DNA from: an uncultured Candidatus Saccharibacteria bacterium
GTDB taxonomy: Bacteria; Patescibacteriota; UBA1384; CAILIB01
Direction: 5' to 3'
DNA length: 64,000 nt
NCBI GenBank assembly: GCA_964593885.1
Contig: CAZQKK010000001.1
Location: forward strand, 24,066-88,065
A program made the translations under genes and the position numbers. Below are positions 35,692 to 46,386 of this stretch, one piece after another. Under the pieces are notes generated by a model, which was not told the origin of the DNA, made no database searches, and saw only the letters and a program-made list of their open reading frames with translations. How positions within the stretch are numbered: the first letter of the stretch is position 1; the number at the start of each line of letters is the position of its first letter.

Positions 35692-36747
35692 CTACTTAGA
35701 CTTAGCTGTCTCAGGATCTTCCCAGAGCTGCTTGAGGTTGTGCCAATCGCCAATGATCACCGAGACAATGGCAGCACTTGGGAGGGCGATAATGGCACCT
35801 GTAACCCCAAAGAGGGCAATACCAACGAGCATGGCGAGGATGACAAATACCGGTGAAAGCCCTACTGCCTTTGCCATTACTCGGGGGGTAATGTAGAAGT
35901 TCTGAATCTGTTGGATAACAAAGAAGTTGACGATGATAACCAGAGCAACGGTAAGGATATCTCCAGTATTGATAGCAACAAAGACTCCTGGCATCACCCC
36001 GATAACCGGCCCAATGTAAGGAATAACCTCCATGAGCCCTGACCAGAGCCCAAGCGGGAGGGGCGATGATACGCCAATGATCGTGTAGACGATAACGTTC
36101 AAGAGACCAACGAAGAGCATGATGGTAAGCTGCCCCCTAATCCAAGCACCCATCTGGTGAGAAATCTTCCTGAGCATGGCGTAGGCCGGCTCAAAACGGT
36201 TCCGAGGCATGATCTGGTGGAGGAACTCTCGGGCGTTCTTTTCTTCAAGGAGAAGGTAGAAGCTGAGGACGAGACCGGTAACTACACTAGCTAGGCCGCC
36301 AAAGAAGCTGAGAGCGGCACTAAAGGCGTTACTTCCGGCACTGCCAAGGCTTCCACTAGCGTTTGAGATGACATCGTTCACCGTTGAGCTAGAAGATCCA
36401 GAACGAAGAGACTCAAGGGCAGGTCTCAATTTGTTGATGATATCTGGGATGATTTCCCCAAGCGTATTAACCTGGGTAATCAGTTTTGGCAGGAACAGGT
36501 AAGAAAGCAGGGTGAATGCGACAACGAGAATGGTAAAGAAGAGTGCTACCGCAAGCCCACGCGACATGTGCTTCTGCATGTTCTTGATAGTAGGGTTAAC
36601 CGCTGCCACAAAGATGAACACCACGAAGAGCATGAAGAGAATCTCGCGCACCGCAAAGAAAGCCCAAACCGCAACTGCAGTGATGAGAATCTTGAAAATA
36701 GCTGACCAGCTAATATCAAAGGTTAGCGTTGACTTTGATGGTTCCAT
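35692..36747 (-). CDS. AI-2E family transporter (UPF0118/PerM-like), 7-8 TM helices
   Basis: Multiple hydrophobic segments and the family-typical LGLWSGLMEVIPYIGPVIGVMPGVFVAINTG. Stop abuts the smpB start. Confidence 0.7.
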   Translation of the reverse strand: MEPSKSTLTFDISWSAIFKILITAVAVWAFFAVREILFMLFVVFIFVAAVNPTIKNMQKHMSRGLAVALFFTILVVAFTLLSYLFLPKLITQVNTLGEIIPDIINKLRPALESLRSGSSSSTVNDVISNASGSLGSAGSNAFSAALSFFGGLASVVTGLVLSFYLLLEEKNAREFLHQIMPRNRFEPAYAMLRKISHQMGAWIRGQLTIMLFVGLLNVIVYTIIGVSSPLPLGLWSGLMEVIPYIGPVIGVMPGVFVAINTGDILTVALVIIVNFFVIQQIQNFYITPRVMAKAVGLSPVFVILAMLVGIALFGVTGAIIALPSAAIVSVIIGDWHNLKQLWEDPETAKSK

Positions 36748-36789
36748 AGGTGGATGTTACGAGAATACTTCTCTAGTAGCGTAGCATGT

Positions 36790-36864
36790 TGGCGCCCTCG
36801 ACAGGAATCGAACCCATATCTCCCCCTTAGGACGGGGTAGCTCTATCCATTGAGCTACGAGGGC
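36790..36864 (-). tRNA. tRNA-Arg (anticodon CCU)
   Basis: rc GCCCTCGTAGCTCAATGGATAGAGCTACCCCGTCCTAAGGGGGAGATATGGGTTCGATTCCTGTCGAGGGCGCCA. 7-bp acceptor GCCCTCG/CGAGGGC, D-arm GCTC/GAGC, anticodon loop GTCCTAA, T-loop TTCGATT, CCA encoded. Confidence 0.85.
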
Positions 36865-36871
36865 AGGCGTC

Positions 36872-36943
36872 ACATCCGCTTTGGTAAAATCCGTGGGACA
36901 AAGAATACGATACTACCCACAAGGTTTTTACCAAAGCGGATGT
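36872..36943. repeat. Perfect 18-bp inverted repeat (acatccgctttggtaaaa / ttttaccaaagcggatgt) with a 36-nt loop, immediately 5' of tRNA-Arg(CCU)
   Basis: Arms at 36872-36889 and 36926-36943 are exact reverse complements. Confidence 0.8.
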
Positions 36944-37038
36944 TCCTTATGCAGTCATGTAGGGACAGTATTTTTAGTCGGTGCTAAAAGATACGCCTCA
37001 TACCCTCAATTCTCCACAAGCTATGTGTGCGAAGAAAT

Positions 37039-37162
37039 GGGTATTGTGGTGAGATCATATTCATCTTCATACAGCCATGCCAGAGTATATGTAGTTGAAA
37101 ATAGGTATTGTGGGAGAATCATATTCCTCTTCCACACGAGCTATTTTCAACTACATATACTC
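37039..37162. repeat. Non-coding repeat cluster. A ~36-bp direct repeat occurs twice (37039-37074, 37103-37138, about 80% identity). A perfect 22-bp inverted repeat gagtatatgtagttgaaaatag / ctattttcaactacatatactc (37083-37104, 37141-37162) encloses DR copy 2 in a 36-nt loop
   Basis: Read directly from the sequence. Region is AT-rich relative to flanks and lies between tRNA-Arg and the hup terminator. Confidence 0.75.
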
Positions 37163-37175
37163 CATTTATAACAGA

Positions 37176-37201
37176 AAAAGTGCCCGAGTGGACACTTTTT
37201 C
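37176..37201 (-). terminator. Intrinsic terminator downstream of hup (bidirectional hairpin flanked by an A-run and a T-run)
   Basis: aaaaagtgcccgagtggacactttttc; on the minus strand the stem-loop is followed by a U-run. Confidence 0.6.
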
Positions 37202-37217
37202 GTAACCTGAGAGTTGG

Positions 37218-37490
37218 TTACTTTACCAGAGAGCGGAGAGCCTTACCTGCACGGAAGCGCGGGAGACGGAGAGATGGGATCTCAATGTGCTTCTTGGTGT
37301 GTGGGTTAACACCACGGCGTGCTTGGCGAAGTCCGACATCGAAGGCACCGAAACCGGTGATAGTGACCTTCTCGTTCTTTGCCAGTGCATCAGAAACAAG
37401 GTCAACAACTGCGTTAACGCCTGCCGCAGCCTCTGTTTTTGAGAGACCTGTTTTCTTTGCAACCGCAGCGATAAGCTCAACTTTATTCAT
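37218..37490 (-). CDS. hup: DNA-binding protein HU
   Basis: MNKVELIAAVAKKTGLSKTEAAAGVNAVVDLVSDALAKNEKVTITGFGAFDV...RRGVNPHTKKHIEIPS has the canonical HU/IHF family signature and length (90 aa). Confidence 0.9.
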   Translation of the reverse strand: MNKVELIAAVAKKTGLSKTEAAAGVNAVVDLVSDALAKNEKVTITGFGAFDVGLRQARRGVNPHTKKHIEIPSLRLPRFRAGKALRSLVK

Positions 37491-37502
37491 AGGGCTCGTT
37501 GC

Positions 37503-38294
37503 TTAACTGTTGGTAAACCGGCGGATGTGTTCAAGGTGTGTTGCACGCTGCGTAGTGACGTCTACTATGCAGAAAGCGGCTCCTAGCTCACATTGTCCTG
37601 TCCCTAGACTATAGCGCCACGGTAGCCCTGTCAAGAAACTTTTAATGATCGGTTCTTTATCTGCTCCTAGACTGGAATTTCGTGGTCCAACCATCCCAAG
37701 ATCAGATATAAACGCGGTGTTATCACCTTCCAACAGTTGGGCGTCTGCAGTAGGTACATGAGTGTGTGTCCCCACTACTAACTGCACCCTCCCGTTGAGG
37801 TACTCTGCCAGCATTCGCTTCTCACTGGTTGCCTCAGCGTGCACATCAACCAGGACTACATCAGGCTTAGGTGAAATCGCCAAAATCTCGTCCATGGTGT
37901 GGAAAGGGTTGTCTACACTTGGCTGCATGAAGACCCTCCCGAGGATGTTGATGAGCCTCACCCGCTTGCCCTTCACGGTAATATCCAGGAATCGCTTACC
38001 CGGTGCGTTACGGTAGTTTGCAGGGCGAACCAGCATGGTGTCAGGCTTATCGATAATCTCCAGCAAATCCTCTTTATCCCAAATGTGGTCACCCATGCTG
38101 AAGGCATCAATGCCAAGGCCGAGAAGCTGCTTGTAGTGCTCCCTAGAGAGCCCATGGCCGTGGGTGGCATTCTCAGCGTTGGCGATGATGAGATCGGGCT
38201 TGTAGTCGTTCCTGAGGGCAGGGAGCAGCTCTTCAACCGCCTCCCTCCCCGGCCTCCCAACAATATCGCCAATGAAAATGACTCTAAGCTCCAT
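37503..38294 (-). CDS. ymdB: YmdB-family metallophosphoesterase (2',3'-cyclic-nucleotide phosphodiesterase, TIGR00282)
   Basis: MELRVIFIGDIVGRPGREAV...DLIIANAENATHGHGL...DAFSMGDHIWDK...VDVHAEATSEK...VVGTHTHVPTAD matches the YmdB metal-binding motifs. Sits downstream of rny as in Firmicutes (1-nt TAATG overlap). Confidence 0.85.
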   Translation of the reverse strand: MELRVIFIGDIVGRPGREAVEELLPALRNDYKPDLIIANAENATHGHGLSREHYKQLLGLGIDAFSMGDHIWDKEDLLEIIDKPDTMLVRPANYRNAPGKRFLDITVKGKRVRLINILGRVFMQPSVDNPFHTMDEILAISPKPDVVLVDVHAEATSEKRMLAEYLNGRVQLVVGTHTHVPTADAQLLEGDNTAFISDLGMVGPRNSSLGADKEPIIKSFLTGLPWRYSLGTGQCELGAAFCIVDVTTQRATHLEHIRRFTNS

Positions 38295-39778
38295 TAGGCT
38301 GCGGTTGCCTGGTAGCGAGCTTCCCGAATCACGTTAACCTTCACCTGACCTGGGTAGGTGAGCTCTTCCTCAATCTTTGCGGCAATTGTTTTAGCAAGTT
38401 TGGCGGCAGCAAGGTCATCAACCTCACCTGGCCTTACGTACACGCGAACCTCACGTCCAGCTTGGATGGCGTAGGTCTTGTCTACCCCTGGGAAGGAGTT
38501 GGCTGTTTTCTCGAGGTCACGGAGACGCTCAACGTACTCTTCGTAGTTTCCTCGGCGAGCACCTGGACGAGCACCCGAGATGGCGTCTGCAGTTTTCACA
38601 ATCCAGGCCTCAGTAGTCTCGGCGGGAACGTCATCGTGGTGGGCAATAATGGCATGAGCCACATCTTCACCAAGCTTGTACTTGCGGGCGATGTCAGCAG
38701 AAATGTGGTGGTGGGGAGCCTTAATATCGTGGTCGAGTGCTTTTCCAAGGTCATGGAGCAGGCCTGCCATTCTTGCAAGCGGCACGTTAGCACCTAGCTC
38801 TTCGGCAATAAGCCCTGAAATTTTGGATACCTCAATGGAGTGAGCAAGCATGTTCTGACCGTACGAGGTGCGGAACTTGAGCTGTCCAAGAATCCTAATT
38901 ACCTCCTTAGGCAGGCCACTCACCTTAGCTTCAACCACAGCAGCTTCGCCAGCTTTCCTGATGGTGTTGTTCACCTCTTCAGTTGCCTTCTGAACAATCT
39001 CTTCAATACGAGCTGGCTGAATTCGCCCATCTCTAATGAGCTGTTCAAGAGAGACGCGGCCAATTTCACGACGAACAGGATCAAACGAGCTGATCATGAC
39101 GGTATCTGGGCTGTCATCAATGAGGAGGTCTACTCCTGTAGCTTTCTCAAAAGCGATGATGTTCCTACCCTCTTTTCCAATCAGTCTCCCTTTCATCTCT
39201 TCGGTAGGGATGGTGACGGCAAAGACGGTGTTCTCAGCAGTTACATCTGAGGCAATACGGGAGAGAATGGTAGAAAGACGCTTGCGAGCCTCGTTTTCTA
39301 CCTCGGTCTCGGTCATCTCATCCATGGCCTTCATCCGCTTGATGATGTCATCTTTCTGACTCTTCTCTACCAGGTTGAGGAGGGCGGTTTTAGCCTCTTC
39401 CTTGGTCATCTTGGCGATGCGCTCAAGTGAAGATTCCTGCTTCTCCCTAATGTCCCTTACCGCATCCTTAAGTTTGTTGAGCTCTTCGCTCTTCGTCTCG
39501 AGGTCACGACGCTGCTTCTCAAGCTCATCAATGCGCTTCTCAGCCAGTTGCTCTCTATTTTGGATAGACTTCTCGAGGTCCTTCACAAACTTTTGGCGCT
39601 CTTCAGCCTCAGCCAGGAGCTCACTCTTACGCTTCTGGGCTTCCCGCTCAGCTTCTTCAATCATCTTCTTCGCCTGTTTTTCAGCCTGCTCAGACTTCCC
39701 TGACTGTTTTCGTGAGGCTACCGCAAAGCCACCGGCTCCTGCTACGAGAGCAGCCAGAATGGGCAAAATAATCTCCAT
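38294..39778 (-). CDS. rny: Ribonuclease Y
   Basis: N-terminal TM MEIILPILAALVAGAGGFAVA, coiled-coil region, KH domain (GRLIGKEGRNIIAFEKATGVDLLIDDSPDTVMISSFDPVRREIGRVSLEQLI) and HD domain (LLHDLGKALDHDIKAPHHHISADIARKY). SD AAAGGAG sits upstream of the ATG. Confidence 0.9.
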   Translation of the reverse strand: MEIILPILAALVAGAGGFAVASRKQSGKSEQAEKQAKKMIEEAEREAQKRKSELLAEAEERQKFVKDLEKSIQNREQLAEKRIDELEKQRRDLETKSEELNKLKDAVRDIREKQESSLERIAKMTKEEAKTALLNLVEKSQKDDIIKRMKAMDEMTETEVENEARKRLSTILSRIASDVTAENTVFAVTIPTEEMKGRLIGKEGRNIIAFEKATGVDLLIDDSPDTVMISSFDPVRREIGRVSLEQLIRDGRIQPARIEEIVQKATEEVNNTIRKAGEAAVVEAKVSGLPKEVIRILGQLKFRTSYGQNMLAHSIEVSKISGLIAEELGANVPLARMAGLLHDLGKALDHDIKAPHHHISADIARKYKLGEDVAHAIIAHHDDVPAETTEAWIVKTADAISGARPGARRGNYEEYVERLRDLEKTANSFPGVDKTYAIQAGREVRVYVRPGEVDDLAAAKLAKTIAAKIEEELTYPGQVKVNVIREARYQATAA

Positions 39779-39965
39779 AAAGCTCCTTTCGCCACCTCAA
39801 ACCAACCAAAAATGCAACCTATTCTCCTATGAGAGATTGAAACGTGAGGTTGCGGAATAATCTGAAAACATGGTTAGTGAGGGGCAAATTACCGTAATTG
39901 TAGGTGTTTGACAGTCCCCAAAGGGACTTAAGCGCACTATAGCGAAGGAGCTCCCGCTTGGCAAT

Positions 39966-39997
39966 TAAAAAACCCTCAGCCAATTAGGCGATGAGGG
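39966..39997 (-). terminator. Intrinsic terminator with the stop codon of gene 39984..40403 inside the hairpin (CCCTCA...TGAGGG + U6)
   Basis: Plus strand aaaaaaccctcagccaattaggcgatgaggg; on the minus strand the hairpin is followed by TTTTTT. Confidence 0.6.
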
Positions 39998-40403
39998 AGG
40001 GAAGGATTCTCATGAACTCGCCGGGAGTTCCATCAAATAGCGTGACAGCAGTACAGCACATGAAGACGCTCTGGTCTTCTTTGGAGAGATCAGTTGCCCA
40101 GATGATCTGTTTGACACCTGCCCCAAGGGCAATGCCAAGCTCGATGTAGACACCACGTGCTCCGGGACTGTCGTAGCCAAGGAGGATAACGACGTCAGCA
40201 TCCTGGACAGCAGCCTTGAAAGCGTCTGCCCACTCTCGGTTTTCCTCAATGTGCTCAGCATATGGCTTGAGGACAACGTGGACCTGCGTCCAGTCAACCG
40301 TTGGCTCCATGCCCTGCTCTTCGAGGAGCGATACGACGGCCGAGACCATCTCGGCATTGCGGGTTCGACCCGCGACGTAGAACGTTCTTTTAGGTTCAGG
40401 CAT
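39984..40403 (-). CDS. Nucleoside 2-deoxyribosyltransferase-like (flavodoxin-fold, YtoQ/Nuc_deoxyri_tr2-like) protein, 139 aa
   Basis: TFYVAGRTRN...ADVVILLGYDSPGARGVYIELGIALGAGVKQIIW resembles the G..G..E.G.A.A.GK core of this family. Confidence 0.4.
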   Translation of the reverse strand: MPEPKRTFYVAGRTRNAEMVSAVVSLLEEQGMEPTVDWTQVHVVLKPYAEHIEENREWADAFKAAVQDADVVILLGYDSPGARGVYIELGIALGAGVKQIIWATDLSKEDQSVFMCCTAVTLFDGTPGEFMRILPSLIA

Positions 40404-40528
40404 ACTTCATCATCTCGATATCTTAGCAAAATGAGCGGTGTGAGCAAGTTCAGGTTGACCAGAGGTATGAAATCGGGTAGGTTATATGGGTTGAAATAAC
40501 TGTGGAAACACAGCTATTCTCGGGGGCT

Positions 40529-40606
40529 ATCGTGCTTCGCACGATGCGACCCTCGCAAGTCATCAACTCTCGTGGGCTCGATTTGCTTCGCAAATCGCGA
40601 CCCTCG
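40529..40606 (+). repeat. Two copies of a palindromic hairpin motif with a TTC loop (atcgtgcTTCgcacgat; gatttgcTTCgcaaatc), each followed by gcgaccctcg. They lie about 50-125 nt upstream of tRNA-Pro
   Basis: 40529-40555 and 40580-40606. Similar hairpins recur at 42654-42672 and 42967-42981 upstream of other tRNAs. Confidence 0.7.
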
Positions 40607-40653
40607 TCGAAATCCAAAAGCGAAAACTTGTTTTCACTTTTGTCTTTCTCCTC

Positions 40654-40729
40654 GGGGCGTAGCACAGTTGGCTAGTGCGCCTGGTTTGGGACCAGGAGGT
40701 CCGCAGTTCGAGTCTGCGCGCCCCGACCA
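40654..40729 (+). tRNA. tRNA-Pro (anticodon UGG)
   Basis: CGGGGCGTAGCACAGTTGGCTAGTGCGCCTGGTTTGGGACCAGGAGGTCCGCAGTTCGAGTCTGCGCGCCCCGACCA. Acceptor CGGGGCG/CGCCCCG, anticodon loop TTTGGGA, CCA encoded. Closely resembles bacterial proM. Confidence 0.9.
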
Positions 40730-40819
40730 AGAAAGAACCTGCAGTAATGCGGGTTTTTTCTTGTCAAAATATAGTATTGACGGGAAAGGTTCTATGGCTT
40801 ATACCGAACATATACCGAT

Positions 40820-41512
40820 ATGCCAAAACTACCCATCCCTCCCCAAACAATCGAAAAAATACGAAACCTGCGCAAGGAAGGTTACTCGTTGAGGGATATT
40901 GAGCGACTAGTTCCTCATAGCAGATCTACTCTCCACAAATACACCTCAGATATCCTCTTTGTGCAGAATGGTGATTCAAAGAATTCTGCAACTATTGAAC
41001 AATACAACAAGAGAACTAGGCTTCGTGAAGCAAAGCTATTTAAACAAGAAAAGGCTGCAGAAGATCTTTTGCCCGATATTACTAACCAGGAGCTCTTCTA
41101 CCTTGGTCTAGGAATTTATATTGGAGAGGGAACAAAAACACATCACCAAACCAGAATTACAAACTCTGACCCAACAGTGTTACTGATCTGTAAAACCTGG
41201 CTAATCAAGTGTCTTAACGTTCCAGAAGATAACATTCGCATTGCGCTTCATATTTATCCAGACGTATCTGAAAGGGCTTCAATAGACTATTGGTCAAATA
41301 CATTAAACATTTCTCAGTCACAATTCTATAAATGCACGACTGACTTGAGAAATAAGTCAAAAACTGGTAGAAACAACAGGGTACTACAGTACGGAACAGC
41401 TCAGATGTATGTAACCGCCAATGGGAATAAGAATTTTGGCTCAAGGTTACATGACGTTATAATGAGCTACATCGATAGATCAAAATACCTTGCGGGTATG
41501 GTTCAATGGTAG
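40820..41512 (+). CDS. AT-rich ORF (230 aa) with N-terminal HTH and a LAGLIDADG-like motif (LGLGIYIGEG). Putative homing-endonuclease-like mobile gene whose last 21 nt overlap tRNA-Gly
   Basis: N-terminal HTH IEKIRNLRKEGYSLRDIERLVPHSRSTLHKY. Motif ELFYLGLGIYIGEGTK resembles the single LAGLIDADG motif plus the downstream Lys. About 38-40% GC versus about 52% in flanks. The reading frame ends ...KYLAGMVQW-TAG inside tRNA-Gly (41492-41512). Confidence 0.4.
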   Translation: MPKLPIPPQTIEKIRNLRKEGYSLRDIERLVPHSRSTLHKYTSDILFVQNGDSKNSATIEQYNKRTRLREAKLFKQEKAAEDLLPDITNQELFYLGLGIYIGEGTKTHHQTRITNSDPTVLLICKTWLIKCLNVPEDNIRIALHIYPDVSERASIDYWSNTLNISQSQFYKCTTDLRNKSKTGRNNRVLQYGTAQMYVTANGNKNFGSRLHDVIMSYIDRSKYLAGMVQW

Positions 41513-41565
41513 AATTCCTCCCTTCCAAGGAGAAGATGCGGGTTCGATTCCCGCTACCCGCTCCA
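41492..41565 (+). tRNA. tRNA-Gly (anticodon UCC)
   Basis: GCGGGTATGGTTCAATGGTAGAATTCCTCCCTTCCAAGGAGAAGATGCGGGTTCGATTCCCGCTACCCGCTCCA. The 3' half is nearly identical to E. coli glyT. Anticodon loop CTTCCAA. Confidence 0.9.
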
Positions 41566-41582
41566 AGATTTCTCAAGTACAT

Positions 41583-41657
41583 GGAGGCCATGGTGTAGTG
41601 GTAACACAACAGATTGTGGATCTGTTATCACGGGTTCGATACCCGTTGGCCTCCCCA
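41583..41657 (+). tRNA. tRNA-His (anticodon GUG) with encoded G-1 and CCA
   Basis: G-1 pairs with C73. Acceptor GAGGCCA/TGGCCTC, D-stem GTGT/ACAC, anticodon stem ACAGA/TCTGT, loop TTGTGGA, T-loop TTCGATA. Confidence 0.85.
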
Positions 41658-41664
41658 ATAAAAG

Positions 41665-41699
41665 GACAAATTGCCTCGTGTAATTTGTCTTTTTATTTT
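41665..41699 (+). terminator. Intrinsic terminator after tRNA-His (GACAAATT-gcctcgtgt-AATTTGTC followed by a T-run)
   Basis: ggacaaattgcctcgtgtaatttgtctttttatttt. Confidence 0.7.
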
Positions 41700-41760
41700 G
41701 AGCGAAATAATGGGTATTGAACCCGTGAGCTGAGGGATGTATCCCGAAGCTGCATAGTGA

Positions 41761-41780
41761 GATACCCGTTGGCCTCCCCA
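41761..41780 (+). repeat. Exact 20-bp direct repeat of the tRNA-His 3' end (gatacccgttggcctcccca; original copy at 41638-41657). att-like scar
   Basis: Identical 20-mers 123 bp apart, with a terminator and tRNA-fragment-like sequence between them. Confidence 0.8.
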
Positions 41781-41837
41781 AGAATGAACATCACCTAGGT
41801 GGTGTTTTTTCTTTTGCCTGAAGCCTACAATAGAGAC

Positions 41838-42572
41838 ATGCACGCTACCTCAACCGTTTTCTGGCTCTCACTGCTCACCGCAGCCACAACAGCCCTAGGT
41901 GCGCTTCCCCTCATGTTCTGGAAGCAGAGCCGACACGGCTGGCAGAGCTACGGTAACTCGGTTGCAGCTGGGTGCATGCTTGGTGCTAGCGTCCTCCTAG
42001 TTGTCCACGGCCTCGATACTAACGTTCTTGGTGTACTTGCTGGAATTCTCATCGGAGCACTCGCAGTCTGGATCACCCAGGTAATAGTTGAGAAACATAA
42101 GGCTTTCCACCTCAAGGGAATGACGGCAATCACCGCTCGAAAAGCCTTTCTCATTGTGAGCATCATGACCATCCACTCGGCTATGGAAGGGTTGAGCATT
42201 GGTGTTTCCTTTGCCGAGAGCGGGAACTTTGGTCTCATCGTGGTTGCCGCCATGGCACTCCAGAACATACCCGAGGGACTGGCCATCTCGCTGGTTCTCG
42301 TACCTCGAGGAGCAACCATTCTGGCAGCAGCTTTCTGGAGCTTCTTCTCAAGCATCCCTCAGGTACTCTTTGCTGTTCCCGCATTCGCGTTTGTGGAGCG
42401 ATTCCACCCGTTCCTCGCACCAGGCTTAGGATTTGCAGCTGGAGCAATGGCGTGGATGTGCTTCAAAGACCTTATCCCTGAAGCAAGTCAGCACCTTGGT
42501 GGTGAGCGAGTCTGGCTCACCGTGACGCTCACCGGTATCGCAACCTTCCTTCTAGATGCCCTCCTGAACTAA
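41838..42572 (+). CDS. zupT: ZIP-family divalent metal (zinc) transporter, ZupT-like. The ORF track starts at GTG 41799; ATG 41838 is preferred
   Basis: 8 TM helices and the ZIP signature HSAMEGLSIGVSFAESGNFGLIVVAAMALQNIPEGLAISLVL. Confidence 0.8.
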   Translation: MHATSTVFWLSLLTAATTALGALPLMFWKQSRHGWQSYGNSVAAGCMLGASVLLVVHGLDTNVLGVLAGILIGALAVWITQVIVEKHKAFHLKGMTAITARKAFLIVSIMTIHSAMEGLSIGVSFAESGNFGLIVVAAMALQNIPEGLAISLVLVPRGATILAAAFWSFFSSIPQVLFAVPAFAFVERFHPFLAPGLGFAAGAMAWMCFKDLIPEASQHLGGERVWLTVTLTGIATFLLDALLN

Positions 42573-42727
42573 AACCTGGAAAAAAGGGTGGTAATCTGGT
42601 AGTGTACGGCAAGCGAGTTTTTCTGCGCCGTATCGATGCAGTAAAGCAGCGCCGTATCGCTTTCAGCGATACAAGGCACTCGCTCGCATGAAAAGAGAAA
42701 GCCAGCTTTCTCTTTCCCTTCTCGCTC

Positions 42728-42803
42728 GCGCCTGTAGCTCAGTGGATAGAGCATCTGTCTTCGGAACAGAGGGTCGGGGGTTCGATCCCCTCCAGGCGCG
42801 CCA
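42728..42803 (+). tRNA. tRNA-Arg (anticodon UCG)
   Basis: GCGCCTGTAGCTCAGTGGATAGAGCATCTGTCTTCGGAACAGAGGGTCGGGGGTTCGATCCCCTCCAGGCGCGCCA. Anticodon stem TCTGT/ACAGA, loop CTTCGGA (U33, TCG, G37). Confidence 0.75.
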
Positions 42804-42817
42804 AATCACCCAAACAT

Positions 42818-42894
42818 GTCCCGATAGCTCAGTTGGATAGAGCGAGAGCCTTCTAAGCTCTAGGTCGCTGGTTCGATCCCAGCTCGGGACGCCA
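42818..42894 (+). tRNA. tRNA-Arg (anticodon UCU)
   Basis: GTCCCGATAGCTCAGTTGGATAGAGCGAGAGCCTTCTAAGCTCTAGGTCGCTGGTTCGATCCCAGCTCGGGACGCCA. Resembles bacterial argU. Confidence 0.9.
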
Positions 42895-42996
42895 GTATTC
42901 AGGTTACACCTGGTTGCCTACTGATAATTTTTCTGGTACTATTTTTCCGTTACTTCGCAGGTCTCAGTCGCTTTCGGCGACAGTGACTCTCGCTTC

Positions 42997-43071
42997 GGGT
43001 CTATAGCTCAATGGTAGAGCAGTGCCCTCTTAAGGCATTGGTTCTGGGTTCGAGTCCCAGTGGGCCCACCA
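42997..43071 (+). tRNA. tRNA-Lys (anticodon CUU)
   Basis: GGGTCTATAGCTCAATGGTAGAGCAGTGCCCTCTTAAGGCATTGGTTCTGGGTTCGAGTCCCAGTGGGCCCACCA. Anticodon loop CTCTTAA. Confidence 0.85.
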
Positions 43072-43086
43072 AAATATTCAACAACC

Positions 43087-43164
43087 AGGCGCGGTCGTCT
43101 AGTTGGTCCAGGACATCAGATTCTCATTCTGAAGATCACGGGTTCGAATCCCGTCCGCGCTACC
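43087..43164 (+). tRNA. tRNA-Glu (anticodon CUC)
   Basis: GGCGCGGTCGTCTAGTTGGTCCAGGACATCAGATTCTCATTCTGAAGATCACGGGTTCGAATCCCGTCCGCGCTACCA. Glu-type D-arm (GTCTAG..CCAGGAC), anticodon loop TTCTCAT. The 5' boundary is +/-1 nt. Confidence 0.8.
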
Positions 43165-43172
43165 AAAAAGAG

Positions 43173-43204
43173 AAACTCTATCGCAAGATAGGGTTTTTCT
43201 TTTT
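43173..43204 (+). terminator. Intrinsic terminator after tRNA-Glu (CTCTATC-gcaa-GATAGGG followed by a T-run)
   Basis: aaactctatcgcaagatagggtttttcttttt. Confidence 0.7.
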
Positions 43205-43216
43205 GTATTGAGATTA

Positions 43217-43349
43217 AACGGGATTCGTTCGTGCTTCTGGCGTAAGTAAGCGAAGCGCTACAGACCAGAAAGCGATGCGAAGCATGTACCTACAAGGAAA
43301 TGTCACATGCTGGGAGCATGTGATTAGAACGAATCCCGTCCGCACTCCA
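43217..43349 (+). repeat. Structured ~130-nt non-coding segment. An inverted copy (43217-43229) and a direct near-copy (43328-43349, 19/21 identical) of the tRNA-Glu 3' end form a 13-bp long-range helix. It encloses internal hairpins including TCACATGC-tggga-GCATGTGA
   Basis: acgggattcgttc is the rc of gaacgaatcccgt. cgaatcccgtccgc is identical to tRNA-Glu positions 43144-43157. Confidence 0.7.
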
Positions 43350-43383
43350 AGGTGAAAGAGCGCAAGTTTGGTACCATACATGT

Positions 43384-44754
43384 ATGCATGAATCGCCTAT
43401 TACCAAACCGCAGATTCCCGATGCAGAGACTACCTTGGTGCCAGAAACCGAGCCATTTGAGTTTGTATACATTCAACGTGAAATCGACCAAAAGTTCATT
43501 GCTGCTCGTTCGCTCCAAATTGTCGAAAGTGCGCGTTCAGAAAACGCACAAAGCTTCATTTTCCTGGATAAATCAGCACGTCCGCTCAACGAAGTTGTTC
43601 GGGAAACCTGGAGATATACCACTGACACCCCACCTCCTCCTACCTACTTCTTTAACATTGGTCGAGAACTCTCATCACCACTTTTCAGTAATCAAGAGAA
43701 CGGTCCACATACAACTATTAGCCCTGGTCTTCTCAACTTACTGTCAGACGCGGAGGCCCTTGAAGCCTACAGACGGCAGTATCGCGGTCTGAATAACCTT
43801 CCTGAAGGAGCTCAGGTCATGATTATTGATGATGTGAGCTCGAGCGGTTCAACGCAAAGAAATGCGCTAGACGCGCTGGAGCTTATGTTCCCGCATATAC
43901 ACTTCACCTTTGAGAGTTTCGTGCCTCAGCACGCTTCAATCCAAAAAAGCGATCAAGAAGAACCAGGCCTGTACTTTCGCAATTCTAGCGTTCACTTGGG
44001 AGAATACATTTTGCCACCTTGGAGTCATAAACCAGGCATAACAGGCGTCACAGACCCAATCCCAAGTATTAATGAAACTAACCTCGTTTCTCGGAAAGTT
44101 CCAAATAGAGCGGAAAGACCAGAAACATCGCCAGCAATAGAGCATGAGCAGGGTATGAGTGGCAACGAAGAGGAGTACGAGCTTCTACCAAACCAGGTTA
44201 ATTACAACACCAGGTTTACTACTCCAGAAGCGCTCTCAAATCTATCAAATGCCCTCGCAGTGGAGGTTAGCGGAATCCTTAGTAACATTGGCCAAAGTTC
44301 GGAATCTGAAAATGTAAGGAGGCTACTCCAAGAAGTTCCGAATTTTGTTCATACACAGAGTATGTCTGCAACTCTCATCGAGTGGGAGCGAGAGCCAGAG
44401 GTAGATGTACTCGTTCTTAACAATCTAAAAGCTCTCCTTTACCGTTTTAATTCTTGGTGCCAACAAGTCAGAGAAAGCGTCACCAGCTGCACTACTGATT
44501 TGGATTTCGATCAAAGAGAAAAGTTGCAAATTCACCTTGATAACCTTCAGAAGATTTTTTTAACGAATATCACTGAGAGATCAGAGCAATTTGAAACCAT
44601 GTTTACCGAAGACAACAACCATACTGACTATGCTTCCACAAACGAAGTGTTACAGTTAAAAAAAGAATTGAAGCAAATCCTTGAAAAATATATTTCGCAT
44701 TCATCAGAAGAAGAACTGCAAGAGCTAAAACATTGGCTTGAGGCACAGCAGTAA
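43384..44754 (+). CDS. Hypothetical protein with an N-terminal phosphoribosyltransferase (PRTase type I)-like domain and an acidic helical C-terminal half (456 aa)
   Basis: PRPP-binding-loop-like motif GAQVMIIDDVSSSGSTQRNALDAL (four hydrophobics, DD, then xxxxGxT). The C-terminal ~250 aa are E/L/Q-rich. GC is lower than the surroundings (about 43-46%). Confidence 0.45.
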   Translation: MHESPITKPQIPDAETTLVPETEPFEFVYIQREIDQKFIAARSLQIVESARSENAQSFIFLDKSARPLNEVVRETWRYTTDTPPPPTYFFNIGRELSSPLFSNQENGPHTTISPGLLNLLSDAEALEAYRRQYRGLNNLPEGAQVMIIDDVSSSGSTQRNALDALELMFPHIHFTFESFVPQHASIQKSDQEEPGLYFRNSSVHLGEYILPPWSHKPGITGVTDPIPSINETNLVSRKVPNRAERPETSPAIEHEQGMSGNEEEYELLPNQVNYNTRFTTPEALSNLSNALAVEVSGILSNIGQSSESENVRRLLQEVPNFVHTQSMSATLIEWEREPEVDVLVLNNLKALLYRFNSWCQQVRESVTSCTTDLDFDQREKLQIHLDNLQKIFLTNITERSEQFETMFTEDNNHTDYASTNEVLQLKKELKQILEKYISHSSEEELQELKHWLEAQQ

Positions 44755-44765
44755 GTACCCGTCCC

Positions 44766-45572
44766 ATGGAAAAAATATCCGGCAACATCTACGAAACAAC
44801 CGCTGACAAGAAGGAAGTTATTGAAGGCGAAGCTGAGCGCCTCAGGAACGCAGACTTCCCAGGCTTTGTGAGTCGTGAACTCATTGGCGAAATTACGCCT
44901 GAGATGCGGGTGCTTGATATCGGATCGGGTGAGAATTCAAACCTTGCAGCTCTCACCTCTGAGAAAGGTGGCCAGTACGTGGCACTTGATAGAAGGCTGG
45001 ATGCCCTTCAAACCCTCGTTAGCTCACCAGACTGGAAAGGAACTGCTATCCAGGCAAACGCAACCGAGCTTCCCCTGAGAGATAGATCTGTAGATATCTC
45101 CCACAGTCGCCTCGTCCACGCTTGGCTCAACGATGAACAGCGGGTAGCCGCAGTACAGGAAATGTTCCGCGTCCTTAGAGAAGGAGGAAAGTTTGTTGCC
45201 ATAGATTTTGACTGGGAAACCATGGAAGGCTCACCCGCCATCATGAGGTTTGCCGAGGTTGCAACCACCATTCTTGGGAGGGTTGGTTTTGATAGCACCT
45301 ACGGCAGCCACGCACTCCAAACCGTTTCTGAAGCCTCCCCTCGCCTCACCTCGCTCACCGAGCAGAGGTTCCACCGAGAAGCAGGCATGTTCTACAACGA
45401 AATCTTTGACAAAGAAGGGCCTCTCTTTTTCATGGCAAACCGTATCCAGAGCCCTGAGCTTGCTGAGGAAGTCACGCACGTATTCAAGCTCCTTCGCGTA
45501 GAAGAACAGGCTGGGCAGCTACAACCTTTTGTTCCACCAGACCTTGTAGGAGTTACTGGTTCCAAGAGCTAG
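44766..45572 (+). CDS. Class I SAM-dependent methyltransferase (Methyltransf_11/25-like, small-molecule type)
   Basis: Motif I VLDIGSGENSN, acidic loop YVALDRR, motif post II RVLREGGKFVAIDFDW. No DPPY/NPPY DNA-methylase motif. Confidence 0.7.
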   Translation: MEKISGNIYETTADKKEVIEGEAERLRNADFPGFVSRELIGEITPEMRVLDIGSGENSNLAALTSEKGGQYVALDRRLDALQTLVSSPDWKGTAIQANATELPLRDRSVDISHSRLVHAWLNDEQRVAAVQEMFRVLREGGKFVAIDFDWETMEGSPAIMRFAEVATTILGRVGFDSTYGSHALQTVSEASPRLTSLTEQRFHREAGMFYNEIFDKEGPLFFMANRIQSPELAEEVTHVFKLLRVEEQAGQLQPFVPPDLVGVTGSKS

Positions 45573-45589
45573 TTGAAACCCAGCACACT

Positions 45590-45622
45590 AAAAAAGCCCC
45601 GCCTTCCGGCGAGGCTTTTTTC
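45590..45622. terminator. Bidirectional intrinsic terminator between convergent genes (AGCCCCGCC-ttcc-GGCGAGGCT with A-run and T-run)
   Basis: aaaaaagccccgccttccggcgaggcttttttcg. Confidence 0.75.
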
Positions 45623-45633
45623 GAATTACACCC

Positions 45634-46386
45634 CTACTTCTCTGGGGTGACCGTACAATCCTTACACTTAGCGGGGTCGAGAGTGCCGATGGTAACCTTG
45701 TTTGTCTTAGCAAGCACAATACAGGCATCGATCATGATCTTGTAGGTTGAGTAGTCTCCCTTGTCTGGTGCCGGCTCCCAGTACGGTAGTGGCGGAAGTC
45801 CACCCTCCTGTGGCTTGTACTTCAGGTTGTAGACCACCGAGAAAGCGTCAGTAGAGTAGGTTCTAATCACCTTTTCTACGCACTTACCATCTACCATTTT
45901 CAGTGCAGTAACCGTTACCTTCATTTTTCCAACCACGTTTGCCACGATGTCAAAAGGCTCTTTGGTATTTTTGAAGAGGAGCACCTTGAGATCTGGCTCA
46001 ATCACCACTTTCTGACAGCCATCATTGGTAAACAGCTTAGCGTCTATCAGTATCTTGGTCAGGAGATCACCCATGTTGTACGTGTCGAAAGGCTTGCAGG
46101 TTTCCTGAGCAGCTGCAACGTTCACAGCAAATGGGTTACTCAAGCTAGCACCATCAGCTTGTGTGAGCGCAGCAGGATTAGGGTAACTAGAGAGCAAGAG
46201 CGCCTGAATTGCCTTGTCCTCAATGGTTCCCAACCTTACCGTCCCCGTAGTCTGCTGACCACCGATGTAGCTTGCACCAGCTAGGTTGTTTGTCGCGAGG
46301 TAGTAGCCAAACAGGGTGCCAAAGATGAAGGTTGCGATACTAAACATCGCGAGAGTTCTCACAACTGGCGTACGACGGAGTTCCAT
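45634..46386 (-). CDS. Hypothetical membrane-anchored/secreted protein (250 aa)
   Basis: N-terminal hydrophobic helix TLAMFSIATFIFGTLFGYYLA. No recognisable catalytic motifs. Four Cys in the C-terminal half. Confidence 0.5.
   Translation of the reverse strand: MELRRTPVVRTLAMFSIATFIFGTLFGYYLATNNLAGASYIGGQQTTGTVRLGTIEDKAIQALLLSSYPNPAALTQADGASLSNPFAVNVAAAQETCKPFDTYNMGDLLTKILIDAKLFTNDGCQKVVIEPDLKVLLFKNTKEPFDIVANVVGKMKVTVTALKMVDGKCVEKVIRTYSTDAFSVVYNLKYKPQEGGLPPLPYWEPAPDKGDYSTYKIMIDACIVLAKTNKVTIGTLDPAKCKDCTVTPEK

What the first reader, a model, noticed from the sequence alone, without database searches (positions are those of the whole stretch)
40820..41565. AT-rich HTH plus LAGLIDADG-like ORF whose reading frame terminates 21 nt inside tRNA-Gly
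The ORF is about 38-40% GC against a local ~52% and sits between tRNA-Pro and tRNA-Gly. It carries an HTH and a single LGLGIYIGEG motif resembling LAGLIDADG homing endonucleases. Its last seven codons (YLAGMVQW) are read through the 5' acceptor and D-arm of a perfectly canonical tRNA-Gly. This looks like a mobile selfish gene that has invaded the tRNA cluster. Its stop codon is supplied by the tRNA, or expression is coupled to tRNA processing.
Basis: partly seen in the sequence, partly recalled or inferred. Interest (0 to 1): 0.55.

Follow-up and report, generated by a model that had tools for sequence, protein, structure and literature searches.

The report
Free-standing homing endonuclease gene beside tRNA-Gly
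The AT-rich gene wedged between tRNA-Pro and tRNA-Gly is a real, intact DNA-cutting "selfish" gene (a helix-turn-helix domain plus one LAGLIDADG nuclease domain) that closely related genomes lack, and it belongs to a large family, not labelled as a nuclease in any annotation I saw, whose members nearly always sit right against tRNA genes.

Summary
ORF 40820-41512 (+, 230 aa, GC 0.39 against 0.51 for the window) runs 21 nt into tRNA-Gly(UCC): six sense codons, AGMVQW, plus a TAG in the D-loop.

The gene is absent from every relative examined. Those genomes keep the Pro-Gly-His cluster, but the Pro-Gly spacer is 2, 98 or 287 nt, or holds unrelated genes. Homology to the nearest relative breaks at 40762 and resumes at 41521.

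The family has about 1,840 clusters at 50% identity. All 80 genome loci of the closest clade (all the named ones Patescibacteria) have tRNA-Gly(UCC) within -15 to +37 nt of the ORF end or overlapping it. Other clades abut tRNA-Met, Ile, Gln, Lys and others. Members also sit in tRNA arrays of large viral contigs and beside tRNA-Gln in a Streptomyces.

Best reading: a free-standing, homodimeric LAGLIDADG homing endonuclease gene that homes into the 5' flank of tRNA-Gly. The overlap with the tRNA is incidental packing; 50 of 80 relatives have their own stop codon. Cleavage activity and the target site are untested.

The parts
40653..40729 (+). tRNA-Pro(UGG). This is the conserved left flank and a possible left homology arm.
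   Evidence: ARAGORN and Rfam, 65.6 bits. It is 100% identical to the copy in relative L081.
40728..40763 (+). A 16-bp hairpin with a U-rich 3' side directly after tRNA-Pro, which looks like an intrinsic terminator. It is the last sequence shared with the relative before homology is lost.
   Evidence: Fold energy is -23.2 kcal/mol, z = -8.6, and the same hairpin is present in L081. The blastn alignment to L081 ends at 40762.
40763..41520 (+). A 758-nt segment with no counterpart in the nearest relative. It contains the ORF plus the first 29 nt of tRNA-Gly, and is the presumed inserted or converted tract.
   Evidence: blastn of the window against L081: flanks are 86-90% identical, with a gap in homology from 40763 to 41520. 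tblastn of the ORF finds nothing in six relatives.
40820..41512 (+). The HTH-LAGLIDADG gene, 230 aa. The true start is the ATG at 40820. The NCBI protein (207 aa) starts at the TTG at 40889 and removes conserved HTH helix 1.
   Evidence: In the family alignment, M1, L17, R18 and G21 are nearly invariant or invariant. Profile E = 1.2e-64.
40841..40960 (+). N-terminal three-helix HTH DNA-binding domain, residues about 8-47.
41084..41131 (+). LAGLIDADG helix, residues 89-104, ending in GLGIYIGEG. Glu103 (41126-41128) is the presumed metal-binding catalytic residue, and Lys106 follows it.
   Evidence: G104 is invariant; E103, K106, G96 and Y100 are kept in at least 90% of 85 relatives. The profile aligns to I-DmoI 'GLYVAEGDKT'.
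41132..41491 (+). The rest of the LAGLIDADG core (beta strands and helices) with the family motifs NSDP, YWS and YGT.
41436..41463 (+). Promoter-like site TTGGCT-16-TATAAT inside the 3' end of the ORF, 28 nt before tRNA-Gly. It is a possible internal promoter for tRNA-Gly and tRNA-His.
   Evidence: Consensus scan, 10 of 12 matches. Conservation is weak: a match of at least 9/12 occurs in 28% of 81 loci against 12% of shuffles, and it overlaps the conserved protein motif FG..LHRRIM.
41492..41565 (+). tRNA-Gly(UCC). Its first 21 nt double as the last six codons and the stop of the ORF. Its 5' part differs from that of all relatives examined.
   Evidence: It is 72-81% identical to the tRNA-Gly of relatives, whereas tRNA-Pro and tRNA-His are 100% identical to L081.
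41584..41657 (+). tRNA-His(GUG). This is the conserved right flank, identical to the copy in L081.
41657..41697 (+). Inverted repeat followed by T-rich sequence after tRNA-His. It is the likely end of the ORF/tRNA-Gly/tRNA-His transcription unit.
   Evidence: Inverted repeat I6: 16-nt arms, 94% complementary.

Best explanation
This is a free-standing homing endonuclease gene. It lies in no intron or intein.

**Protein.** It has an N-terminal helix-turn-helix domain, a long linker helix and a single LAGLIDADG nuclease domain. By analogy with I-CreI-type single-motif enzymes (inferred), two copies pair through the LAGLIDADG helix. Each contributes Glu103 to a shared metal site, and together they make a staggered double-strand cut in a long DNA site. 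The HTH domains would extend or anchor recognition.

**Target (inferred).** The target is the gene-less version of the tRNA-Pro/tRNA-Gly(UCC) interval, most likely a site spanning the 5' edge of tRNA-Gly. Insertion of the gene would split that site, which would explain why the carrier is not cut.

**Spread (inferred).** The broken chromosome is repaired by recombination with a gene-carrying copy. The conserved tRNA genes on either side provide the homology, and the adjoining 5' part of tRNA-Gly is converted along with the gene.

**Shown here:**
- the fold and the conserved LAGLIDADG-helix Glu;
- absence of the gene from all close relatives examined, with an intact empty site;
- a sharp loss of homology to the nearest relative that includes the first 29 nt of tRNA-Gly;
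- foreign base composition;
- strict adjacency to tRNA genes across the family.

**Inferred:** nuclease activity, dimerisation, the position of the target, and the repair route.

**The overlap.** The 21-nt overlap with the tRNA is incidental. The gene is inserted flush against the tRNA, and the reading frame stops at the first in-frame stop, the TAG of the D-loop.
For: **Fold and active site**
- Profile A1 against PDB sequences matches the C-terminal LAGLIDADG domain of I-DmoI at E = 8e-6. 'GLgLYwGEGsK' aligns on 'GLYVAEGDK'.
- The AlphaFold model built with 85 sequences has pLDDT 92.3.
- E103, G104 and K106 are kept in at least 90% of 85 relatives.

**Mobility**
- Relatives found through RNase Y (79-99% protein identity) keep the Pro-Gly-His cluster. 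Their Pro-Gly spacers are:
  - 2 nt in L088, L089 and L093;
  - 98 nt in L092;
  - 287 nt in L084;
  - 906-1021 nt with unrelated genes in L081, L082, L090 and L094 (on the opposite strand in L081/L082 and L090).
- tblastn of the ORF finds no remnant in any of them.
- Homology to L081 ends at 40762 and resumes at 41521, within flanks that are 86-90% identical.
- ORF GC is 0.39 against 0.51 for the window. That is about twice the usual family deficit of -5.3 points, seen in 76 of 79 loci.

**Site specificity**
- All 80 genome loci found by protein pattern alone have tRNA-Gly(tcc) on the same strand at the ORF's 3' end.
- In 10 loci tRNA-Pro ends 14-98 nt before the ATG, so the gene fills the Pro-Gly spacer.
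- In a second set of 80 metagenome loci, 41 abut another tRNA on the same strand within -45 to +44 nt: Met 15, Ile 13, Gln 4, Lys 3, Gly(gcc) 2, and one each of Gly(tcc), Phe, Trp and Val. Many of the rest have a divergent tRNA-Val(tac) upstream of the ORF start.
- Family members on large viral contigs are wedged inside tRNA arrays.
- A Streptomyces member ends 23 nt before tRNA-Gln.

**Free-standing**
- No group I or group II intron model matches 36000-46000, even at E <= 1.
Against: - No cleavage assay exists, and the target site is not identified.
- Across the family, ORF GC tracks host GC (r = 0.87). Many copies are therefore long-resident, and vertical inheritance with losses contributes to the distribution.
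- tRNA-Gly(UCC) is also only 75-83% identical among the gene-less relatives themselves. The divergent tRNA-Gly in the window is consistent with co-conversion but does not prove it.
- tRNA-Gly alleles linked to the gene show no common 'resistant' signature. Both D-arm types occur among them.
- The nearest relative is about 88% identical in DNA, not a sister strain, so the gain is not tightly dated.
- No close donor exists in the databases; the best homologue is 41% identical.
- No consensus promoter or Shine-Dalgarno sequence precedes the ATG.
- No Pfam LAGLIDADG model is matched.
Confidence: 0.72

Rival explanations
1. Domesticated DNA-binding protein. Like WhiA, this would be a LAGLIDADG scaffold plus an HTH that no longer cuts DNA. 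It would act as a transcription factor or architectural protein for the adjacent tRNA operon, inherited vertically and lost in some lineages.
For: - Database sources call relatives 'HTH transcriptional regulator' or 'predicted transcriptional regulator'.
- The position next to a tRNA is conserved across very diverse Patescibacteria.
- ORF GC tracks host GC, r = 0.87.
- A promoter-like site for the tRNA lies inside the ORF.
Against: - The LAGLIDADG-helix Glu, Gly and Lys are kept in at least 90% of relatives. By my own knowledge, WhiA has lost them.
- All relatives examined lack the gene yet keep functional-looking tRNA clusters, some with a 2-nt spacer.
- Composition in the window is foreign.
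- Different clades sit beside different tRNAs and inside phage tRNA arrays. This fits site-specific invasion better than a housekeeping role.
Confidence: 0.1
2. Sharing 21 nt with tRNA-Gly would exist to tie expression of the gene to tRNA processing. RNase P would cut the co-transcript at 41491/41492 and remove the stop codon. The protein would then be made from a non-stop mRNA and tagged by tmRNA, which would throttle a toxic nuclease.
For: - The ORF and the tRNA must be co-transcribed at least in part, because no terminator can fit between them.
- A strong terminator isolates the unit from tRNA-Pro.
- smpB is encoded nearby in the relatives, and its counterpart lies in the window.
- 29 of 80 relatives also overlap their tRNA.
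Against: - 50 of 80 relatives end with their own stop codon 0-37 nt before the tRNA.
- The commonest overlap lengths (10 and 15 nt, 21 here) follow the positions of TAG or TAA triplets in the tRNA 5' part in the three frames.
- The residues encoded by the tRNA are not conserved.
- The physical consequence may still occur, but nothing indicates selection for it.
Confidence: 0.08
3. Passive cargo. The gene plus the tRNA-Gly 5' part would have arrived by ordinary recombination with foreign DNA, for example a large phage's tRNA array. The endonuclease would have played no part, and it could be an inert relic in this genome.
For: - Relatives occur in tRNA arrays of large viral contigs.
- The tRNA cluster and those of its relatives are littered with partial tRNA duplications, which indicates frequent recombination.
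- Unrelated genes occupy the same spacer in L081 and L090.
Against: - The ORF is intact, with every family-invariant residue.
- The same clade is found beside the same tRNA in 80 of 80 unrelated genomes, which random recombination would not produce.
- No match exists in 50,697 deposited phage genomes.
Confidence: 0.08

Closest known systems
Single-motif homodimeric LAGLIDADG homing endonucleases (I-CreI, I-CeuI, I-MsoI, I-CvuI) and I-DmoI
   Same: - The sequence profile matches I-DmoI at E = 8e-6.
- There is one LAGLIDADG helix ending in an acidic residue followed by Gly, which implies a homodimer and a roughly palindromic target of about 20 bp. That last step rests on family knowledge.
   Different: - Those enzymes are encoded in group I or archaeal introns of rRNA or protein genes. 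This one is free-standing in an intergenic spacer.
- It carries an extra N-terminal HTH and a long linker helix.
- It matches no Pfam LAGLIDADG model.
- Its motif is G-L-x-L-Y-x-G-E-G-x-K.
Phage T4 SegB, a free-standing GIY-YIG homing endonuclease in the T4 tRNA gene cluster (PMC2330249). By my own knowledge, also the HNH endonucleases of the phage T5 tRNA region.
   Same: Each is a free-standing endonuclease gene lodged among tRNA genes. It is inherited preferentially together with flanking tRNA sequence by double-strand-break repair ('intronless homing'). In way of life this is the closest analogue.
   Different: - The catalytic fold differs: GIY-YIG or HNH against LAGLIDADG.
- Those are phage-borne, whereas this one is in a cellular (Patescibacteria) chromosome. 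Relatives do occur in viral tRNA arrays.
- Here adjacency to the tRNA 5' end is tight to within tens of nucleotides and specific to each clade.
LAGLIDADG endonucleases in rRNA insertions of CPR/Patescibacteria (Tsurumaki et al. 2024, cited in PMC13011429 and PMC11809585)
   Same: Same host phylum and same nuclease superfamily. Both target highly conserved RNA genes.
   Different: - Those sit inside 16S or 23S rRNA insertions or introns and are recognised by standard LAGLIDADG models.
- The survey of Patescibacteria tRNA introns reports HNH, not LAGLIDADG, endonucleases there, and does not mention tRNA-flanking free-standing genes.
WhiA (DUF199), a domesticated LAGLIDADG plus HTH transcription factor
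   Different: - By my own knowledge, WhiA has two degenerate LAGLIDADG domains without catalytic residues and a C-terminal HTH, and is universally conserved in its lineages.
- This protein has one domain, an N-terminal HTH and a retained catalytic Glu, and is patchily present.

Membership tests
LAGLIDADG homing endonuclease superfamily | A LAGLIDADG helix ending in a conserved acidic residue followed by Gly | tested here: met
   The motif GLGIYIGEG is residues 96-104. G104 is invariant and E103 is kept in at least 90% of 85 relatives. It aligns with I-DmoI ...VAEGDK.
LAGLIDADG homing endonuclease superfamily | An alpha-beta-beta-alpha-beta-beta-alpha core fold | tested here: met
   [not shown]
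LAGLIDADG homing endonuclease superfamily | A match to the curated Pfam models LAGLIDADG_1, _2, _3 or _WhiA | tested here: not met
   Only HTH families match, for the window protein at E <= 10 and for the 85 relatives at E <= 0.01. NCBIfam gives nothing relevant. The protein is a member of the superfamily by profile and structure, but not of any curated family.
LAGLIDADG homing endonuclease superfamily | Site-specific double-strand DNA cleavage leaving 4-nt 3' overhangs | not testable with these tools
   This needs a biochemical assay on the empty Pro-Gly alleles.
Homing (mobile) endonuclease genes in general | Presence/absence polymorphism at one conserved genomic site, with intact empty sites in relatives | tested here: met
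   Relatives have Pro-Gly spacers of 2, 98 or 287 nt and no trace of the ORF. All 80 loci of the same clade are at tRNA-Gly(tcc).
Homing (mobile) endonuclease genes in general | Residence in a self-splicing intron or an intein | tested here: not met
   No intron model matches 36000-46000 at E <= 1, and the ORF is intergenic. The gene is therefore of the free-standing class.
Free-standing endonucleases of tRNA clusters (T4 SegB type) | The gene lies between tRNA genes, and flanking tRNA sequence is co-converted with it | tested here: inconclusive
   Location: met. Co-conversion: the non-homologous tract includes the first 29 nt of tRNA-Gly, and that tRNA is only 72-81% identical to those of relatives. 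However, the relatives differ from each other by as much.
Free-standing endonucleases of tRNA clusters (T4 SegB type) | A GIY-YIG catalytic domain | tested here: not met
   [not shown]
WhiA-like domesticated LAGLIDADG regulators | Two degenerate LAGLIDADG domains lacking catalytic residues, a C-terminal HTH, and universal vertical conservation | tested here: not met
   This protein has a single domain, an N-terminal HTH and a conserved Glu103. It is absent from all close relatives examined.
Integrase-driven islands inserted at tRNA genes | A tyrosine or serine integrase, plus a direct repeat of the tRNA 3' end flanking the island | tested here: not met
   The novel tract is only 758 nt and contains one ORF. 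No repeat of tRNA-Gly flanks it. The tRNA-His 3' repeat at 41763-41782 lies outside the tract and is shared with L081.

The most novel reading that the evidence does not exclude
The family may be a distinct, previously unrecognised class of minimal mobile elements that use tRNA genes both as target and as homology arms, and that carry tRNA sequence with them as 'endonuclease plus tRNA' cassettes.

If so, they would drive horizontal exchange and rapid turnover of tRNA alleles in Patescibacteria. That would explain why tRNA-Gly(UCC) is far more variable than its neighbours. They would also help assemble and reshuffle the large tRNA arrays of huge phages.

Where the ORF runs into the tRNA, RNase P processing and tmRNA would in addition limit the nuclease dose.
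Probability: 0.25. Interest if true: 0.78.

Novelty: new variant of a known kind. Interest (0 to 1): 0.6.

Why it matters
- **Annotation.** The family has roughly 1,840 clusters at 50% identity and is currently labelled 'hypothetical' or 'HTH transcriptional regulator'. It would be re-read as nucleases.
- **A new cellular niche for homing endonucleases.** The 5' flank of tRNA genes would join rRNA introns as a niche in the small genomes of Patescibacteria. The same niche links these bacteria to the tRNA arrays of huge phages.
- **tRNA clusters as hot spots.** This would explain why tRNA clusters there carry unrelated inserts and partial tRNA duplications, and possibly why some tRNA alleles turn over quickly.
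- **Practical value.** Compact single-motif LAGLIDADG enzymes with an added HTH and many clade-specific targets are raw material for meganuclease engineering. A member in a culturable Streptomyces makes experiments feasible.
- **Annotation caveat.** Gene callers truncate the N-terminus here, and the C-termini of many family members are simply translated tRNA.

Tried and rejected
- **Single-sequence searches gave little.** Pfam and NCBIfam found only a marginal HTH. PDB phmmer gave I-DmoI at E = 0.55 only. The word-indexed protein search found only the protein itself. Single-sequence AlphaFold was useless beyond the HTH, pLDDT 43.
- **Look-ups that failed.** Looking up the annotated protein's contig failed. 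The first locus search, with the 85-sequence alignment, had no conserved stretch to search with.
- **Degraded copies in relatives.** I looked for remnants of the gene in the relatives' spacers. None was found.
- **A 'resistant' tRNA-Gly allele.** I tested whether tRNA-Gly alleles linked to the gene share a common signature. They do not; both D-arm types occur. I therefore dropped the model in which the target lies wholly inside the tRNA.
- **Divergent tRNA-Gly as proof of co-conversion.** This is weakened by the equally high divergence among relatives.
- **Conserved internal tRNA promoter.** The signal is weak, 28% against 12% in shuffles, and is confounded by a conserved peptide motif.
- **Other elements considered and rejected.** There is no group I or II intron and no integrase or attachment-site repeat, so this is not an integrative island.
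- **Deposited phage genomes.** No match.
- **Gene tree against host taxonomy.** I did not attempt this comparison, because many MAG taxon labels look unreliable.
- **Literature.** Five full-text searches found no description of tRNA-flanking LAGLIDADG genes.
Full report
**1. The observation**

The window carries an ATG-to-TAG reading frame at 40820-41512 (+, 230 aa). It lies between tRNA-Pro(UGG) at 40653-40729 and tRNA-Gly(UCC) at 41492-41565, with tRNA-His(GUG) following at 41584-41657. All three score 65-69 bits against the Rfam tRNA model.

The frame enters the tRNA by exactly 21 nt: GCG GGT ATG GTT CAA TGG TAG.

ORF GC is 0.39 and GC3 0.38. The rest of the window is 0.51, and the flanking genes have GC3 of 0.53-0.61.

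**2. What the protein is**

On its own the sequence shows only a marginal resolvase-type HTH and a sub-threshold similarity to I-DmoI. An exhaustive HMMER scan of 1.84 billion cluster representatives changes the picture. It finds 1,839 relatives at E <= 1e-3 and 310 at E <= 1e-10. Most are 215-230 aa with the same layout.

An alignment of 85 of them (A1) shows four conserved elements:
- an N-terminal HTH, 'LRKxGxSYxxI...SKSTLSxW';
- a long helix;
- the block 'RxLFxxGLxLYWGEGxK';
- the motifs NSDP, YWS and YGT.

G104 is invariant. E103, K106, G96 and Y100 are kept in at least 90% of the sequences.

Pfam LAGLIDADG models do not match any of the 85 members. Database sources call relatives 'hypothetical', 'HTH transcriptional regulator' or 'transposase-like'.

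The NCBI version of this protein starts at the TTG at 40889 (207 aa). That start deletes conserved HTH helix 1. The family alignment supports the ATG at 40820.

**3. Is it mobile?**

I used the neighbouring RNase Y gene (38294-39778, -) to find relatives and fetched their loci. All but one relative (L086/L087, where only tRNA-Pro remains near RNase Y) keep the tRNA-Pro/tRNA-Gly/tRNA-His cluster in the same place. None has the ORF.

| Locus | RNase Y protein identity | Pro-to-Gly spacer | Content |
|---|---|---|---|
| L088, L089 | 84% | 2 nt | empty |
| L093 | 84% | 2 nt | empty |
| L092 | 87% | 98 nt | empty |
| L084 | 85% | 287 nt | no large gene |
| L081, L082 | 99% | 906 nt | unrelated gene, opposite strand |
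| L090 | 88% | 1021 nt | unrelated gene, opposite strand |
| L094 | 79% | 959 nt | unrelated gene |

The unrelated genes have no Pfam match.

The closest relative, L081, is only 86-90% identical in flanking DNA despite its 99% RNase Y protein identity. It is a related species rather than a sister strain. Its homology with the window stops at 40762, just after a conserved 16-bp terminator hairpin behind tRNA-Pro. It resumes at 41521, inside tRNA-Gly. The novel tract is therefore 758 nt: the ORF plus the first 29 nt of the tRNA.

tRNA-Pro and tRNA-His are 100% identical between the window and L081, whereas tRNA-Gly is only 72% identical, with a different D-arm. This fits co-conversion of the adjoining tRNA sequence. 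The gene-less relatives, however, also differ from each other by 17-25% in this tRNA, so it is not proof.

**4. The family-wide pattern**

A protein-pattern search of one genome per species found 423 confirmed loci. The best 80 are MAGs or single-cell genomes; all whose record titles name a lineage are Patescibacteria, apart from three labelled Gammaproteobacteria or Pseudomonadales, which I take to be mis-binned. In all 80, tRNA-Gly(UCC) lies on the same strand at the 3' end of the ORF:
- 50 have their own stop codon 0-37 nt before the tRNA;
- 29 run into the tRNA, mostly by 10 or 15 nt, which are the positions of TAG or TAA triplets in the tRNA 5' part;
- 1 has an early stop.

tRNA-Pro(UGG) is the nearest upstream tRNA on the same strand in 39 of the 73 loci with enough upstream sequence. 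In ten of those it ends 14-98 nt before the ATG.

A second clade set was taken from metagenomes. Of 80 loci, 41 abut another tRNA on the same strand within -45 to +44 nt: Met 15, Ile(UAU) 13, Gln 4, Lys 3, Gly(GCC) 2, and one each of Gly(UCC), Phe, Trp and Val. Many of the remainder have a divergent tRNA-Val(UAC) about 65-230 nt upstream of the ORF start.

On IMG/VR contigs of 15-527 kb, nearly all members are wedged inside dense tRNA arrays. None occurs in 50,697 deposited phage genomes. A member in Streptomyces sp. TLI_185 ends 23 nt before tRNA-Gln.

The many C-termini in the family that read '...AGVV', '...MRV', '...RSSVG' or '...VAQLDRASA' are simply translated tRNA 5' ends.

**5. Composition across the family**

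ORF GC is below flank GC in 76 of 79 loci, by a mean of 5.3 points. It also tracks host GC (r = 0.87). Many copies are therefore old residents. The window's 12-point deficit suggests a comparatively recent arrival.

**6. Mechanism**

*Shown:* the fold, the conserved LAGLIDADG-helix Glu, intact empty sites in relatives, the sharp homology break, and the site specificity of each clade.

*Inferred from knowledge of single-motif LAGLIDADG enzymes and of free-standing endonucleases such as T4 SegB (PMC2330249):* the protein dimerises and cuts a long site in the gene-less allele. Recombinational repair then copies the gene and some adjoining tRNA sequence.

Alleles linked to the gene share no 'resistant' tRNA-Gly signature. 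I therefore favour a target that spans the insertion point at the 5' edge of tRNA-Gly and is destroyed by insertion.

The strong terminator after tRNA-Pro means that the ORF, tRNA-Gly and tRNA-His form their own transcription unit. That unit ends at the hairpin at 41657-41697. A promoter-like site at 41436-41463 inside the ORF could serve the tRNAs, but its conservation is weak and confounded by a peptide motif.

If the ORF and tRNA are co-transcribed, RNase P would remove the stop codon. That is a plausible side-effect. It is not a conserved design, because most relatives carry their own stop.

**7. Rivals**

- A WhiA-like domesticated regulator is disfavoured by the conserved catalytic residues and the patchy presence.
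- An integrase-driven island is excluded: the tract is 758 nt, has one ORF and has no flanking repeats.
- Passive cargo from phage DNA cannot explain 80 of 80 associations with the same tRNA.

**8. Novelty**

LAGLIDADG endonucleases, and free-standing endonucleases in phage tRNA clusters, are both known. Five full-text searches found no paper describing the following: a very large free-standing HTH-plus-single-LAGLIDADG family, invisible to Pfam, that is bound clade by clade to the flanks of particular tRNA genes in Patescibacteria, in large viral contigs and in at least one actinomycete.

I rate it a new variant of a known kind, interest about 0.6. What is missing is biochemistry: whether it cuts, and where.

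Noticed in passing
window 41709-41728 and 41763-41782: Downstream of tRNA-His there is an inverted copy of its T-arm (20 nt, 90% complementary) and a direct copy of its 3' end (GATACCCGTTGGCCTCCCCA). Both are also present in relative L081, so they predate the ORF insertion. They look like footprints of earlier recombination at the tRNA cluster.
   Followed up: partly
window 40533-40555 and 40584-40606: Two small hairpin-plus-'GCGACCCTCG' repeat units, 51 nt apart, lie just upstream of tRNA-Pro. They are also present (both units alike) in L081. They may be a regulatory or promoter-region repeat of the tRNA-Pro gene.
   Followed up: no
L081 4234-4968 (+), L090 4712-5506 (+), L094 4690-5010 (-): In related genomes the same Pro-Gly spacer holds unrelated genes of 233-264 aa (opposite strand) or 106 aa. 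None has a Pfam match. The spacer is a hot spot for different inserts.
   Followed up: partly
L084 (reverse-complement coordinates 8052-8338) and L088 (8318-8443): The 287-nt Pro-Gly spacer of L084 contains a second copy of the tRNA-Pro 3' end followed by a second terminator-like hairpin. The Gly-His spacer of L088 contains a copy of the tRNA-His 5' end (GAGGCCATGGTGTAGTGG). Partial tRNA duplications recur in this cluster.
   Followed up: no
L175-L203 (IMG/VR contigs): Family members on large viral contigs (15-527 kb) sit inside dense tRNA arrays, up to 21 tRNAs in 6.5 kb. They occur in either orientation and often overlap a tRNA end. None is found in deposited phage genomes.
   Followed up: partly
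L204 3001-3861 and 3885-3957 (Streptomyces sp. TLI_185, GCA_003814765.1): A 286-aa family member in a cultured actinomycete ends 23 nt before tRNA-Gln(UUG), upstream of a nucleotidyltransferase (glmU-like by its Pfam hits) and a ribose-phosphate pyrophosphokinase gene. This could be a tractable experimental system.
   Followed up: partly
window 40889 (the TTG start used by the NCBI protein P0001): The deposited annotation starts the protein 23 residues too late, probably attracted by the Shine-Dalgarno-like AAGGAAGG at 40874-40881. This removes the conserved first HTH helix.
   Followed up: yes
window 7294-23250 (-): A single 5,318-aa open reading frame, which would be a giant protein typical of ultra-small episymbiotic bacteria. 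It was not examined.
   Followed up: no
window 36900-37200 and 44400-44850: Two further AT-rich patches, GC 0.36-0.40 against about 0.51. The first lies next to tRNA-Arg(CCU). Neither encodes a relative of the endonuclease family.
   Followed up: partly
tRNA-Gly(UCC) in the window and in L081, L084, L088, L090, L092, L094: Among these close relatives, tRNA-Gly(UCC) is only 72-83% identical pairwise. tRNA-Pro is nearly invariant, and tRNA-His is identical between the window, L081 and L088. This is an unusually fast-changing tRNA gene, possibly through repeated gene conversion at this locus.
   Followed up: partly
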